This document shows, in pieces, positions 30,001 to 36,000 of a DNA stretch of 64,000 bases. The stretch's first letter is position 1; each line of letters begins with the position of its first letter. Source of the DNA: Laetmonice hystrix (lineage: Eukaryota); contig OZ249437.1 in assembly GCA_965235115.1 (NCBI GenBank), positions 48,856,001-48,920,000 of the forward strand, written 5' to 3'. Made by a program: the position numbers.

Positions 30001-33000
30001 GTGCCTAAGGTTCAAGGCAAGTTATGCTCTCACCTTGAGTAAAAACAATGTCATCCCAATTCAAGCAAGGAACATTCAAGAAAAAGGAGAACTACTTAGT
30101 AGACTGAAAAGATTTCCAACATGTTACTGGGGTCTGTACTGATGGCTCATGGCTTCAATTTTTCTTACACAATGCCCCCTTCTAAGAAGCAGGAAATGCT
30201 ACCCATTACAAATGACTATCCATCGTAAAACCACTGGAGTTGAACAACACATAACACTACCAGGGGTTGGGGGGGGGGGGGAAGACACACTACCTTGCCT
30301 TCCTCCTGGCACCAGAGGGCACCAAGCTGATTGTGCATCTCCACAATCTAGGGTTGAGGAGCCTGGAGGCTCCATGAGCCCAGTTGTAATAAAACCTCAG
30401 TTGAGACCCTTACAGTTAGTAAATTACACACGGTTACCTCCCCTACCCACCAAATCTTTAGGTTTACCCAAAGGTGACTCTTTATTAACTTTTCTCAGTG
30501 ACAGTATACTCTGAACATGAATTGGGGCATGACCACTACACCTGCCTTGTCACTGATCATGGCCGCGTCCCCTCCCTCCCACTTTCCTTGAGACCCTCTC
30601 ATGTTTCTATTGTGATGCACTGACAGACTATAACTGCTTGGTAGTCTTCATGGATGAAGGATCTGAATAACAGGAGTAAGCACATCCGCTTATGTACAGC
30701 CCTGCCCAACTGGCATACAAAACTATACACTTTTCACACATCAGCTAACAAAGTTAGATCTGAATTTGAACTACATAATTGGGAAACAAATTAAAAAAAA
30801 AGGAAGTAAGAAATACATTCATTAACCAAAGTTCTGAATAAATACCCAAATTCTAGTTTCTGCTTATACACTAATATCAGTATTTGAAACATGTATGCCA
30901 GATACAGCGCTGGAATTTAACACATGCCCGGATGCCATTTGAGCCTAATTTTCATTCCAGGCGCCTTAAAATGCCTCAGTCATATGCCCTGGTAGTTTGT
31001 AGAAAATTCTGGTCAAAATTTCAATGTACAGCTCTTTTTCTAAAGTTGCTGGCCTGTAACGTGGATCAAAATTTCAGATGGACTCCATCTTGGGAGGGCT
31101 ACTGAAGGCAGTTGAAACAAGTGCCATGATTCTGAACTCTAGATACAAGCTGTGATTATTTATTATTAAAAGACATCCTTTCCACATGTTTTTTGATGTT
31201 GTTAATAATATGATATTTTTGGGGGGTTATTTTCAGATTTGGTTGTCAGGCTAGTAAGCCGCTAGTTTCTATACATGTCAGACTGGTAACTTTTTCAAGG
31301 TAAGCCTGACTGGTTTGCTGGTAACAAAGCTGAATTTCGCTGTCTGATAACTCTAAGCTTGAAAAAAACATGATTTTTATTTTTCCTAAACATGACATGA
31401 ACCTCTCCTTTAGAGATTCTGTCAACATTTCAGCTGCACAAGCTACTAGTACGGAAGGAACATGAACTCTAAATGTTAAATTATCAGCATTTGAGATTTT
31501 ATTTCAAATCTCAGACTGTCCAGATTTAAGTCCCCTACAACATAATACATGTACTCTAAATAGTAAACCATCGGCAACAGTACTGGCTGCCTATGTGATA
31601 GTTCATTTTATTTCACTTTTTTTAATCAATGAAGGCATAGGTCAACACACTCAATTTACTTTGTGTCCTTTCTCCCCATGCCAAGCCTGCATTGTAATTG
31701 GACAAAGGCATTTGTGATTTGCACCAACATGATATGATAACTGCTTCTAAACTGGGTTAAACGAGCACAAATTACAGCTGGGTTGATCAAAACAAAGTTA
31801 ATTGTGCTGTGAGTTTGAGAGAGCAGCAAAAACAATCACAAAATACCCACTCCATACTTTCTCTGGCATCCAGTGATACAGCTTGCCTAGGTTTCTATCC
31901 AGGACTCTACCCAAAATTTTGCGCCTATTTCTTTTGTTTTTTTTTGGTAAGGGGTTCCATATTATCTGTAATCACGTTATCAGAGGACTATACATGTGAT
32001 AAAATATTTGCAAAAACCTATTTGCAGCTTCAATCTAGCAAGGTTTAGACAAGGTTAATTACAAGGCAGATGCATACATGTGTTTCTCATGGTCAACTGA
32101 GTAAGTCTAATGTAGGCCTAACAGGAAAAATCTTTTCTTTCTATTCCATATTTCAACACAAGGAATAAAGACCACTTAGACCAGGGTGTGAAATTAGGGG
32201 GGGGGGGGGTGCCATGTAGTGGGAGCTTCGAATTGAAGGCTGTTTTTGCCTACCAACCAATAGCAGTATAATATCATGGGTATCAAAGCTACCCAAGGGG
32301 ATTACAAAAGGACGGGGGGGGGGGAGGCCTTTGTCCAGAAAATGTTTGCCAATTTAAAGAGGGGGGGTCATAATAATTTTAAGTTGTTTCCATTAAATAT
32401 CATTGAAATAGAATAGTTTCGAGCCCAATTCCTGAATATAAGTGCCGGTGTACAAAGAAAACATATTTTATAGGGACACTCTAAGTGGCATTCCTCACCC
32501 CTTTCCCAAACGGCCCGATCTAGGTCCATCAACACTGCATATCATTATATGAGTCACAAACTTGTAATGGGATGACCCAGATCAACCCAAGCCATGCCAC
32601 GCGCTATCAGCAACTATGATAGCGCAGTGAAGACACCGGCTTACATGCCCACAAGATTGTCAAGAGAAAATGGTGAAGCTAGTTGTCTGAAGTATTGTAG
32701 CCAGTCATGTCCAGATGGGGTGTCTCTTTTCTCTATACCAAAAGAGGAAACCCTGAAGAGAAAGTGGATGAACTTATAACAGCTCAAGAAGGGGTGGTTC
32801 TAGGCTATGTGTGTAGCACTTGACCACTTCGGAGATGCCCATCTCTGTGGCTCATACATCCACCCCAAAACCTCTTGTTCTGCTCCAACATCCTCCTCCT
32901 CATCTATCCCACTTCCAGAATCGTAGAAATTTTCCATCTCATAACTGGATTCATCATTAGAAAAGGAGTTATCTGAATCTGAAGATGCCATGACCCTATA

Positions 33001-36000
33001 TCTTATTGCTGCTCCAGGCTCTGTTTACAATTTTGTGACGTCACCCACCACAGTGGAGCACTCAGTGGTGCCGAACAGAGCGTTTTCAGCACGGGGATGA
33101 TGTTACCAACTCCCGTCACTCACAGCGGGGTTGGTAAGGGTGTGTATGTTGGGGGATCCGTAGAAGATGTTTTTTGTGAAATATATTCCAACTTACAAGT
33201 AAAGTGGCATGATTATGACCCCCCCTCTTTAAGGTTTTAATACTTAGGCCTAGATATTCAGTATTGCAATTTTCTTTTAATCCGAGTGATATCCAGGTGC
33301 ACTGAAAAAAAAACAGGCAAACTGAAATAAATCTGGGTGCATTGGATTAGGGACCCTTCATGCCTGACACCCAGTTTCACACCCTGAACAGAGAGGCCCT
33401 ATTTTTTTTATGGCCATTCAACTGATATCTAAAACAAATAAATCTTATCCAAGTTCTGAAATAATGAAGAAAAAAAGCATAACATGTTAGGCCTACATGT
33501 ATACAAGTGTCAGACTCCATGTCCCATGCGCGTCATCTCCCAGACTCCATGCCCCACTCACCCCGAGTCAGGTTGTCAAGTCAACGGGCGGCAGTCGCCC
33601 ATGTTCCCGATACGTGGCGGTCTTTAAACTGGGCAGATACATGCCAATTTGGTTGATCAATTAAATGGGGCGCCTAAGTATGTCACGAGAATTCAAGAGA
33701 TTTCGCGTTGTCGGGACAAGGAGCAGATAGCCCCGCTGGTTTAACATTGCGATGGCCATAGGGAACAGTGACAGTCAACTTTAAAATATTTTCATTCTGC
33801 AGTGAAGTTGCTGTTAATATTTCAACATTACAATACATGATAGCTGGTATGTTTACTCTGGGATAAAGTTTGTTTTATAGTTTTGAAAGTTAGATTGTGA
33901 ATATACAGGCTGGTTTTTGTAAACCTGTCGGCCCTGCCAATGCTAATCCTATGGGGAAATTTTTGACGTACGTTTGGTGCTATCGCGAGCTGTTTTGAGG
34001 CTATTTAACGTCATTTGCATATCCAGGTCACGAGACTTAGGCGCCCTATTAATACCGTCCGACTAGGCCTAATGAAATGATTGCTAAAAACTATTATTTT
34101 TTAAGGAGAAATGTCAACTGGAGAATGAAATGTAGTCTAACGTTACACTTGGGACATGGAGTCTGACAGAATTATAGTCGATTCGCCCCAGGTCGGTTTC
34201 GACCCGGGTCGGTTTCGCCCCACAACCTAGTCGATTCGCCCCACCCCTAGTCGTTTCGCCCCACTCTCGAAGTCGTTTCGCCCCACACACCTAAGTTACC
34301 CTAAGTTCTTTAACCACACTGGAGCTTTTATAGTTAGTTGGTAGGCCATTACTAATACTGCCTCGTCTCGACGATGGGCCTTGGCCGCCACCGGGCCTCG
34401 GAGGGGAGAAGCGGGCCGGGCGGGGACGTCCTGGCACCCGTTCGAAGGGTCGGGCGTCAGGGTCGGAAGCGGGGACTGGGTGGAGTGAGGCAGGCCGGTT
34501 GCCGGCGGGCGGGCGGGTGGCTGCGGCGGTTGCAGGCTCACGATCCCGTCTAGGGCACTAGGCCGATACGGCCTACGCGAACCCGCCTACAGACACAGCT
34601 CCGCCGGTCGTCAGCGGCTCGCTACCCGGCCGCCTGGCTGCCGGGCCGTGGAGGTGGGGAGCCCGGTACGGGCCGGCAACAGCACGCGGTAGCCGGTAGT
34701 TAGCAGCTCGCTCCGGGCCGGACGGTCGGCCTTAATTGGTTCACAAAACGACTTGTTTACTGGACTGGATAGTATCAAGACTCAAGAGACAATAAAAACG
34801 TAGACTGATAGAATGATAGAGTCAGTTAGCGTCCAGTCTGGACTGGGGCGAAACGACTTTCCGAGTGGGGCGAATCGTCTTCTACCAGTGGGGCGAATCG
34901 TCTTTTCGAGTGGGGCGAATCGACCGGGGCGAATCGGAAGTGGGGCGAATCGACTATTTACCCTCTCACATAGGCCTACTGGGACATGGCGTGCAACATG
35001 GAGTGACAATTGCACAGGCTGTAGTTTGGGAGTTTTACACTTACAGTAGGCCTAACGTTACAAATTACAATACGATACAGGGCATTTGAATTTTGAGACT
35101 GAAAGTTGAAACTGAAAAAGTCAAAGCCTGCAAATGTTATAACCTGGCTGAAGAGTTTGAGCTTGTTTGCCATCAATAGAATAACTAGCCTTAAATAAAA
35201 ATGTTCAGGCTTATACAACATGTTGATCATAAACCAAATAGCCTATAGAATTGGGATACAAGGCAGGCCTAACATAGGCCATAGGCCTCCCTTGTTTGTG
35301 GTAGGCCTAGTACTTATTTGATAGCGTCAGTGTCTTTATCACCTCGGCCTCCTTCGGCTTCGCCCCCCGACCTGCCCGATGTCTGTGTTTGTCAGTGTCA
35401 ACGCCGGCTGGACTCGGTGTTATTATAGGTGTTTGTTTGCTGCATTATAATGTTTGAATCCTAGTTTTGCACTAAGTGATTAATAAAATATCGTGTTTAG
35501 AATATACATACCACTAAATGATTGATGTATATGACTGGGATGTCTGGCTATTTACGGAGGATGTAGGGCACCTTGCACCCAATTTACGCCAAGTAGCAAC
35601 AACCAACACTTCCTGTACAATTACTTCCTGGAACAGCGGCACATCCTATCAAAAGAAGGTCGGCTGTTGAAACGGGAGGCATCACCCCCTGAAAACAGAA
35701 ATTAGATACAATCAAGTAGCACACTATGAAATTACTAAATTACTGATTTATTATAGTTTTTTAAAAGAAAAATGGGCAGAGAAATTTCGAAAACATATTT
35801 CAAAAAGAAATACTTGAAGCTTTTGCTATTTCATAATATCGTGAGTGTTCGGCAACTTCCGCTCCGTTGCCAAGAGACGGAGGGAAGTAAACCATCATGG
35901 AGGGTGCAGTCACAGCAAACATGAAGTCTGTCGAAAACTAAAACGCCAACGATCTTGTCATTTGAATCACTGCAGGGTCTACAGGAAACAGAGGTACTAT

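What the first reader, a model, noticed from the sequence alone, without database searches (positions are those of the whole stretch)
32358..33228. Kolobok-type relic keeping the 5' stubs of both convergent genes
Seen: perfect 17-bp TIRs and TTAA on both sides. A + strand THAP-like stub (32670-~32835) and a - strand acidic ORF stub (from 32991) point at each other and meet near 32835-32850. Established: Kolobok elements use TTAA TSDs and can carry a THAP-containing transposase plus a second, convergently oriented ORF. Inference: one internal deletion removed both 3' halves but kept both promoters and the cis ends. The perfect TIRs suggest mobilisation in trans by an autonomous two-gene partner elsewhere in the genome.
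Basis: partly seen in the sequence, partly recalled or inferred. Interest (0 to 1): 0.68.

Follow-up and report, generated by a model that had tools for sequence, protein, structure and literature searches.

The report
Broken Kolobok-type jumping-gene relic
This is an 871-base dead copy of a cut-and-paste DNA transposon of the Kolobok type, sitting between animal genes; it is an ordinary piece of genomic debris, not a new kind of element.

Summary
A perfect 17-bp terminal inverted repeat (32358-32374 / 33212-33228) is flanked on both sides by TTAA. It is the only such pair in the window, and 0 of 100 simulated windows reached 12 bp. The ends read 5'-AG...CT-3', the Kolobok rule (RR...YY plus TTAA) and not the piggyBac one (PMC9587614, PMC6004289).

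The + strand THAP relic is real but broken. Read in one frame with its two stops as X, Pfam THAP gives E=4.3e-4 and 21.4 bits, under the 23.9 cut-off. The match covers profile 2-61 of 87, at 32684-32839. It is the only family below E=0.01 in a six-frame read-through. The ATG at 32670 is out of frame with it.

The - strand acidic ORF (32991 to 32803) exists. It matches no family, and its length is ordinary for this window. Calling it the 5' stub of a second gene (KolX-like) is plausible from the literature but unproven.

The kept promoters and mobilisation in trans are untested. No other copy lies in the window, and no eukaryotic genome collection was available.

Verdict: a non-autonomous, internally deleted Kolobok-like element. 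Low interest.

The parts
32354..32357 (.). Left target-site duplication, TTAA
   Evidence: Read directly; part of the 24-nt arm I1.
32358..32374 (+). Left terminal inverted repeat AGAGGGGGGGTCATAAT, beginning 5'-AG
   Evidence: Exact match, one of only 2 in the window. It is the only TTAA-flanked perfect inverted repeat of 10 bp or more in the window.
32375..32683 (+). Left subterminal region and leader. It holds a 9-bp-stem hairpin at 32601-32625, an in-frame ATG at 32645 and an out-of-frame ATG at 32670.
   Evidence: No family hit in any frame. No significant inverted similarity to the right subterminal region (57 of 300 shuffles reach the score).
32684..32839 (+). Relic of a THAP zinc-finger domain. 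It has C-x3-C ... P ... W ... C-x4-H-F, is cut short at about profile position 61 of 87 (no AVPTIF box), and is broken by in-frame stops at 32777-32779 and 32801-32803.
   Evidence: Pfam PF05485: E=4.3e-4, 21.4 bits (cut-off 23.9) with stops read as X. For the open piece alone E=0.06. THAP was matched by 1 of 150 window ORFs, this one. It is the only family with E<0.01 in the six-frame read-through.
32800..32991 (-). Acidic, serine-rich 63-codon ORF (ATG at 32991, stop at 32800-32802). Possibly the 5' stub of a second gene. Its last 14 codons are antisense to the THAP relic.
   Evidence: No Pfam family and no meaningful PDB match (best E=1.2). Atlas look-alikes score 0.92 with low recognition. 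The ATG context is GTCATGG.
32992..33211 (-). Right subterminal region. It contains a TGACGTCA palindrome at 33036-33043, 45 bp upstream of the minus-strand ATG.
   Evidence: The motif occurs 3 times in the window, so one copy here is not significant.
33212..33228 (-). Right terminal inverted repeat, ending ...CT-3' on the + strand
33229..33232 (.). Right target-site duplication, TTAA

Best explanation
The 871-bp segment 32358-33228 is a non-autonomous, internally deleted copy of a Kolobok-superfamily cut-and-paste DNA transposon.

Shown: a Kolobok-type transposase would recognise ends of this kind (17-bp TIRs starting 5'-AG), and the element sits in a duplicated TTAA target. Near its left end it keeps a decayed N-terminal THAP DNA-binding module of the former transposase gene. 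Everything downstream of that module, including the AVPTIF end of THAP and the whole DDD/E catalytic core, is gone.

Inferred: the loss arose by internal deletion, for example abortive gap repair after an excision. The copy cannot move by itself and could move only if a related autonomous element supplies transposase in trans. The intact ends and TSD beside a broken coding relic fit a lineage that lost coding capacity before its last transposition.

Open: the right part carries an inward-pointing acidic ORF. It may be the start of the accessory gene that some Kolobok lineages carry (KolX in Kol0; a complementary-strand nuclease in KolobokP). I put that at about 0.45. The element appears to have landed inside an older foldback/MITE-like repeat, in a repeat-rich stretch upstream of the first dynein-like ORFs of a DNAH6-like gene.
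For: TIR and TTAA:
- 17 of 17 perfect, 23 of 24 including TTAA.
- Unique in the window, and beyond all 100 simulations.
- Termini are AG...CT.

What the literature says of Kolobok:
- Kolobok makes TTAA duplications and has 5'-RR and YY-3' termini, 'unlike piggyBac' (PMC9587614, Background, read in full).
- All 10 full-length Xenopus Kolobok copies begin with AG (PMC6004289, Table 5 passage).

THAP:
- E=4.3e-4 over profile 2-61 of 87, with the two stops read as X.
- It is the only family below 0.01 in all six frames.
- Only 1 of 150 window ORFs matches THAP, and it is this one.
- A stricter THAP N-half pattern occurs only here in the window; 9 of 60 simulated windows have one anywhere.
- THAP is N-terminal in Xenopus Kolobok transposases. 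I infer this from PMC6004289: the proteins said to lack the N-terminal region (Tr34, 35, 37, 38) are those lacking the THAP motifs in Table 2.
- A HMMER search of Repbase TE proteins found THAP only in P families and in Kolobok-1_XT and Kolobok-2_BF (PMC2203978, passage).
- P elements make 7-8 bp duplications (PMC5199201, passage). Here the flanks agree only over TTAA.

Non-autonomy: no DDE, P2RX7_C or His-Me hit in any frame.
Against: - The THAP score (21.4 bits) is below Pfam's curated cut-off (23.9). It needs two stops read through, and the C...H spacing is x4, not the usual x2 (the usual spacing is recalled).
- No transposase core is present, so the superfamily assignment rests on the ends, the TSD and THAP only.
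- No second copy was seen anywhere. There is none in the window. A scan of the prokaryote genome collection with the 24-nt end found 0 matches, which is uninformative. Repetitiveness, the basic property of a transposon family, is therefore unshown.
- TTAA contains TA, so a TA duplication with 18-bp TIRs is formally possible.
- The atlas look-alikes of the minus ORF include clusters in which 18% of members carry the piggyBac transposase family (13 of 30 hits).
Confidence: 0.66

Rival explanations
1. The parent was a two-gene Kolobok with convergent genes (a THAP transposase on one strand, a KolX-like or nuclease gene on the other). One internal deletion removed both 3' parts and left both 5' stubs with their promoters.
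For: - Kol0 Kolobok families encode a second protein, KolX. KolobokP encodes a nuclease on the complementary strand downstream of the transposase (PMC9587614, sections 3, 9 and 12).
- The minus ORF starts with an ATG in a GTCATGG context, 220 bp inside the right TIR, and points inward.
- Its acidic part ends at 32845, 6 bp from the end of THAP homology at 32839.
- Its first 49 residues have no basic residue.
- Atlas first hits score 0.92, in eukaryotic clusters.
- N-terminal parts of ballast-domain proteins are variable and have no recognisable homologs (PMC7016195, passage), so a missing hit is expected.
Against: - The minus ORF has no Pfam family and no meaningful PDB match (best E=1.2).
- An ORF of this length is ordinary here: 202 ORFs of 70 aa or more in 64 kb, 3 of them overlapping the element.
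- The atlas recognition value is 1800, below the 2300 that 91 in 100 known-family proteins reach.
- The orientation of KolX in Kol0 is not stated in what I read.
- Nothing tests promoter activity. The single TGACGTCA is not enriched (3 in the window).
- The THAP frame is already broken, so a kept promoter would drive no protein.
Confidence: 0.35
2. It is a piggyBac-type non-autonomous element. The acidic minus-strand ORF is the N-terminus of a piggyBac-like transposase, and the THAP piece is a captured or unrelated fragment.
For: - TTAA duplication.
- 13 of 30 atlas hits of the minus ORF fall in a set where 18% of members carry PF13843, DDE_Tnp_1_7.
- A few piggyBac families encode a protein similar to part of KolX (PMC9587614, section 12).
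Against: - The termini are AG...CT. PMC9587614 uses the RR...YY termini to tell Kolobok from piggyBac. The usual piggyBac CCC...GGG ends are recalled, not checked.
- No DDE_Tnp_1_7 relic in any frame.
- The atlas hit shares only 117 of 256 features and recognition is low.
- THAP was reported in TE proteins of P and Kolobok only (PMC2203978, a 2007 search).
Confidence: 0.07
3. It is a TA-targeting element (Tc1/mariner/pogo-like MITE) or a member of another superfamily. The outer T and A of 'TTAA' would be chance, and the TIRs would be 18 bp (AAGAG...).
For: TTAA contains TA, and the base inside each TA is complementary (A...T), so the reading is formally allowed.
Against: - It needs a 1-in-16 coincidence for the outer T and A.
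- The THAP relic is not a feature of those families (PMC2203978).
- The ends do not resemble the usual Tc1/mariner ends (recalled).
Confidence: 0.04
4. It is not a mobile element: a chance inverted repeat around unrelated sequence.
For: Only one copy has been seen.
Against: - 0 of 100 simulated windows reach even 12 bp between TTAA sites; the observed repeat is 17 bp.
- A THAP relic sits inside the repeat in the expected position and orientation.
Confidence: 0.01

Closest known systems
Kolobok superfamily, Kol0 lineage (Kolobok-1_XT type; Xenopus XKol and T2-MITEs)
   Same: - TTAA duplication and termini starting AG.
- An N-terminal THAP domain in the transposase.
- Existence of short non-autonomous derivatives (T2-MITEs).
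- A second gene (KolX) in autonomous copies.
- One Xenopus subfamily end, AGGGGAACTATCATGA, loosely recalls AGAGGGGGGGTCATAAT (PMC6004289 Table 5; PMC9587614).
   Different: - No transposase core and no ballast-domain (P2RX7_C) relic in this copy.
- The end is AGAGG, not the AGGRR of T2-MITEs.
- The host is a different animal: its DNAH6-like exon matches mammalian DNAH6 at 189 bits over 142 residues, not identity.
- Family membership at sequence level is untested.
KolobokP (Kojima and Bao 2022, PMC9587614)
   Same: - TTAA and RR...YY ends.
- Short TIRs of 11-18 bp.
- A documented convergent second gene.
- Non-autonomous units that can be excised.
- Found in several marine invertebrate phyla.
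   Different: - KolobokP is defined by long terminal direct repeats of about 450 or 660 bp. This element is 871 bp and has no long internal direct repeats.
- No His-Me nuclease relic.
- THAP is not mentioned for KolobokP: 0 occurrences in the paper.
piggyBac-type MITEs
   Same: TTAA target duplication, short TIRs, small size.
   Different: The termini are not of the piggyBac type (PMC9587614 Background). A THAP relic is present, and there is no DDE_Tnp_1_7 relic.
P elements
   Same: A transposase with an N-terminal THAP domain, and internally deleted non-autonomous copies.
   Different: P makes 7-8 bp duplications (PMC5199201). Here the flanks match only over TTAA.

Membership tests
Kolobok superfamily | [quoted passage not shown] | tested here: met
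   TTAA lies at 32354-32357 and 33229-33232. The flanks do not match beyond these 4 bases. One copy only, so target specificity across copies is unseen.
Kolobok superfamily | Termini 5'-RR ... YY-3' (PMC9587614); AG in all 10 full-length Xenopus copies (PMC6004289) | tested here: met
   The element starts AG and ends CT.
Kolobok superfamily | DDD/E transposase with the C/DxxH signature in autonomous members | not testable with these tools
   This copy has no transposase core in any of six frames read through stops, as expected of a non-autonomous copy. The autonomous partner would have to be sought in the source genome, which was not available.
Kolobok superfamily | THAP DNA-binding domain (C2CH; P, W, F; AVPTIF box) at the transposase N-terminus (PMC6004289) | tested here: inconclusive
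   PF05485 gives E=4.3e-4 and 21.4 bits against a cut-off of 23.9, over profile 2-61 of 87. C, C, P, W, C, H and F are present; the AVPTIF box is absent; there are two in-frame stops. The match is specific but below the curated threshold.
Kolobok superfamily | Repeated family: several copies sharing the ends | not testable with these tools
   No second copy in the window. There were 0 matches in the prokaryote genome collection, which cannot answer the question.
Kol0 lineage of Kolobok | Second gene KolX with the ballast fold (7 conserved Cys; Pfam P2RX7_C) | tested here: inconclusive
   No P2RX7_C hit in the minus ORF or in any frame. If the ORF is a KolX start, the domain lies in the deleted part. 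N-terminal parts of such proteins have no recognisable homologs (PMC7016195).
KolobokP lineage | Long terminal direct repeats of about 450 or 660 bp, each with its own short TIRs | tested here: not met
   The element is 871 bp and has no long direct repeats inside it. Its length fits neither solo-LTDR class, nor the 1,738-3,261 bp non-autonomous families (PMC9587614, sections 5 and 6).
KolobokP lineage | [quoted passage not shown] | tested here: not met
   No such family appears in the six-frame read-through at E<=1. It could lie in a deleted part.
piggyBac superfamily | TTAA duplication with piggyBac-type termini and a DDE_Tnp_1_7 transposase | tested here: not met
   TTAA is met. The termini are of the Kolobok type (PMC9587614). 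There is no DDE_Tnp_1_7 relic. The only pointer is a weak atlas lead.
P superfamily | 7-8 bp target-site duplication (PMC5199201) | tested here: not met
   The 8 bases outside the TIRs are CAATTTAA and TTAAGGTT. Only TTAA is shared.

The most novel reading that the evidence does not exclude
The element descends from an undescribed Kolobok lineage in this animal. In its autonomous form that lineage pairs a THAP-DDD/E transposase with a convergent gene whose acidic N-terminus resembles that of piggyBac-type transposases or KolX. That would link the two TTAA-targeting superfamilies, which are already reported to share KolX-like proteins. The short derivative would keep two inward-facing promoters that could make convergent transcripts (double-stranded RNA) across the junction.
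Probability: 0.07. Interest if true: 0.4.

Novelty: new member of a known kind. Interest (0 to 1): 0.12.

Why it matters
It matters little beyond annotation. It marks 32354-33232 as transposon-derived, so the two short ORFs should not be called as genes. It adds a Kolobok-type non-autonomous element to a repeat-rich stretch upstream of the first dynein-like ORFs of a DNAH6-like gene. If the source genome holds longer copies with these ends, they would show whether the Kol0-type accessory gene sits convergently to the transposase. The papers I could read do not state that point.

Tried and rejected
Other copies:
- blastn of the element and both flanks against the window found self hits only.
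- tblastn of both stubs found self hits only.
- An exact scan of the prokaryote genome collection with the 24-nt end found 0 matches. I did not use the allowed second scan, because that collection cannot hold the host genome.

Families for the minus ORF:
- Pfam at E<=10 found none.
- The best PDB match was E=1.2, to an unrelated oxygenase.
- The six-frame read-through gave only DUF7481 at E=0.092.

My first THAP reading used three frame changes. I rejected it in favour of one frame with two stops, which scores better.

PDB search with the THAP pieces found no THAP chain. The best hits were unrelated, at E=0.16-1.4.

The atlas search with the THAP piece gave no usable hit.

Longer TIRs and subterminal repeats: not significant, 57 of 300 shuffles reach the score.

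TGACGTCA as a promoter sign: 3 copies in the window, so not enriched.

Rfam and tRNA scans of the window found 0 and 0, so there is no SINE-like or RNA-gene explanation.

Literature:
- One search was wasted on terms that were too broad.
- 'KolX' occurs in only one relevant paper.
- A search for Sola3/TTAA gave one paper, with nothing decisive.

KolobokP solo-LTDR reading: rejected on length and on the lack of direct repeats.
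Full report
**Setting.** The window has no N and is animal nuclear DNA.
- Exon-sized ORFs from about 42.6 kb to the end, on the + strand, belong to an axonemal dynein heavy chain. One exon (45600-46064) matches DNAH6 chains at E=4e-55, 189 bits over 142 residues. That fits a related gene and is far from identity, so I do not take the contig for human.
- A Pfam scan of 150 window ORFs also found Tropomodulin, Methyltransf_32 and FoP_duplication. That call does not say which ORF matched. 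By my reading of the translations, I place them at about 20-21 kb (-), 12.3-13.7 kb (-) and 4.7-5.1 kb (+).
- That scan covered ORFs of 70 aa or more up to 48.6 kb (149 of 202), plus the THAP piece. It found no transposase or reverse-transcriptase family.
Genes were recognised from single ORFs only.
- The finding lies about 3 kb upstream of an ORF (36282-36617) that I take, without a test, for the first dynein exon.

**The ends.** AGAGGGGGGGTCATAAT occurs at 32358-32374 and, inverted, at 33212-33228. It occurs nowhere else in the window, even with 3 mismatches.
- Both copies abut TTAA. With it the arms are 24 nt with one mismatch.
- I compared all pairs among the 400 TTAA sites lying 60-6000 bp apart. 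This is the only pair with a perfect inward inverted repeat of 10 bp or more. In 100 simulated windows the mean number of such pairs was 0.04 and the longest repeat was 11 bp. Chance is excluded.
- The repeat is short. Beyond about 20 bp the two subterminal regions are no more alike than shuffles (57 of 300 reach the score).
- The element is 871 bp with 44% G+C.

**Which superfamily.**
- Kojima and Bao (PMC9587614; Background and sections 5, 6, 8, 9, 10, 12 and 16 read) state that Kolobok makes TTAA duplications and, unlike piggyBac, has 5'-RR and YY-3' termini.
- Hikosaka et al. (PMC6004289; passages and tables read) list ten full-length Xenopus copies, all starting with AG. Nine have TTAA on both sides; one (Tr11) has ATAA on the right.
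- This element starts AG and ends CT.
- P elements, the other THAP-bearing superfamily, make 7-8 bp duplications (PMC5199201, passage). Here the flanks share only TTAA.
- A TA duplication with 18-bp TIRs is formally possible, because TTAA contains TA. It needs an extra coincidence.

**The THAP relic.**
- The open piece 32576-32776 matches Pfam THAP only weakly: E=0.06, 14.6 bits, profile 2-35 of 87.
- As a control I scanned 150 window ORFs. Hits at E between 0.003 and 0.1 to some family are common (34 families matched in all, 25 listed, most of the listed ones single weak hits). THAP, however, was matched by 1 of 150, this one.
- I first read the rest of the domain through three frame changes. 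A pattern scan then showed that C-V-A-L-D-H-F at 32810 lies in the same frame as the N-terminal half.
- Reading that one frame with its two stops as X raises the match to E=4.3e-4 and 21.4 bits. It then covers residues 37-88, that is 32684-32839, and profile 2-61 of 87. The stops are TAA at 32777-32779 and TAG at 32801-32803.
- In a read-through of all six frames of the element, THAP is the only family below E=0.01.
- The score stays under Pfam's cut-off of 23.9. The last quarter of the domain, with the AVPTIF box that PMC6004289 lists, is missing.
An in-frame ATG lies at 32645.
- In Xenopus Kolobok transposases THAP is N-terminal. I infer this from PMC6004289: the proteins said to lack the N-terminal region are those without THAP motifs in Table 2, and the one lacking the C-terminal region lacks the last catalytic residue.
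- A HMMER search of Repbase TE proteins found THAP only in P families and in Kolobok-1_XT and Kolobok-2_BF (PMC2203978, passage).
- THAP, TTAA and AG...CT together point to Kolobok.

**The minus-strand ORF.**
- From the ATG at 32991, 63 codons are open. The first 49 residues (to 32845) are acidic and serine-rich, with 15 D/E, 9 S and no K/R. The last 14 are antisense to the THAP relic.
- It matches no Pfam family and no PDB chain at a meaningful E-value (best 1.2).
- The protein atlas gives first hits of 0.92 in unnamed eukaryotic clusters. In addition, 13 of 30 hits fall in a set where 18% of members carry the piggyBac transposase family. Recognition is low (1800) and few features are shared (117-156 of 256), which the tool itself rates as weak.
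- ORF length carries no weight: the window has 202 ORFs of 70 aa or more, and three overlap this element.
- The literature makes a second gene plausible. Kol0 families encode KolX, a ballast-fold protein related to the P2X7 C-terminus. KolobokP encodes a nuclease on the complementary strand (PMC9587614).
- Rump et al. (PMC7016195, passages) note that the N-terminal parts of ballast-domain proteins are variable and without homologs. A stub that stops before the domain therefore cannot be recognised by family searches.
- I recall, from no call, that such proteins often have an acidic N-terminus followed by a [FY]-E-P motif, which '...WMYEPQ' would fit. This is a lead only.

**What is missing.** No DDD/E core, ballast domain or His-Me finger is left, so the copy is non-autonomous. 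The KolobokP architecture is not met: there are no long direct repeats, and the length fits neither LTDR class. Promoter retention is untested. The only candidate motif, TGACGTCA at 33036-33043, is not enriched.

**How it most likely works.**
- Shown: ends and target duplication of Kolobok type, a broken N-terminal THAP relic, and no catalytic gene.
- Inferred: an autonomous ancestor lost its interior by deletion. The derivative kept the cis ends that the transposase needs, and it can be cut out and pasted into TTAA sites only with transposase from a related autonomous copy.
- Perfect ends beside a coding relic with two stops suggest that coding capacity was lost before the last insertion.

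**What stayed unchecked.**
- Repbase and Dfam.
- The supplements of PMC9587614 and PMC6004289, which hold the KolX and transposase alignments and the family lists.

**Verdict.** This is an ordinary internally deleted Kolobok-like element, a new member of a known kind at most, and of low interest.

Noticed in passing
window 32110-32155 with 33457-33498, and 32182-32198 with 33370-33386: The Kolobok-like element is bracketed by an outer, imperfect inverted repeat (local score 33, against a maximum of 27 in 200 shuffles). Without the insert this outer structure would span about 510 bp, with the TTAA near its middle. It looks like a nested insertion into an older foldback/MITE-like repeat, which could supply empty-site evidence in the genome.
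   Followed up: partly
window 34182-34952: Two inverted arrays of 14-22 bp tandem units (GTTTCGCCCCAC-like, 2.6-3.9 copies each) flank a very G+C-rich core of about 600 bp, a foldback-type structure. A related motif, TGGGACATGGAGTCTG, recurs at 33511-33526 and 33541-33556 (reverse strand) and at 34150-34168. The stretch from 32.1 to 35 kb is therefore a patchwork of repeats.
   Followed up: partly
window 59367-59641: A 275-bp MITE-like element with 46-nt arms, 87% complementary (CAGGGGCCCGTCTTACTAAACATCG...), apparently in an intron of the dynein gene. Its target duplication was not resolved.
   Followed up: partly
window 32198-32210 and 32315-32325: Runs of 13 and 11 G lie in the left flank, close to the G-rich TIR (7 G). 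The first follows CAGGGTGTGAAATTAGG, which is part of the outer inverted repeat. Whether these are slippage products or remains of related ends is open.
   Followed up: no
window 32601-32625: A perfect 9-bp-stem hairpin (GCGCTATCA, 7-nt loop, TGATAGCGC), unique in the window, lies 20 bp upstream of the in-frame ATG of the THAP relic. Its function is unknown.
   Followed up: no
window about 42600-64000 (+), probably from 36282; 20309-20966 (-); 12347-13726 (-); 4721-5071 (+): Host genes: a DNAH6-like axonemal dynein heavy chain (DHC_N2 and AAA_6 hits; DNAH6 chains at E=4e-55), and Pfam hits to Tropomodulin, Methyltransf_32 and FoP_duplication (Friend of PRMT1). The coordinates given for the last three are my reading of the ORF translations, not the scan's output.
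   Followed up: partly
window 50895-50942 and 51147-51194: A 48-nt direct repeat (90% identical, 252 bp apart), ending in T and A runs, inside the dynein gene region.
   Followed up: no
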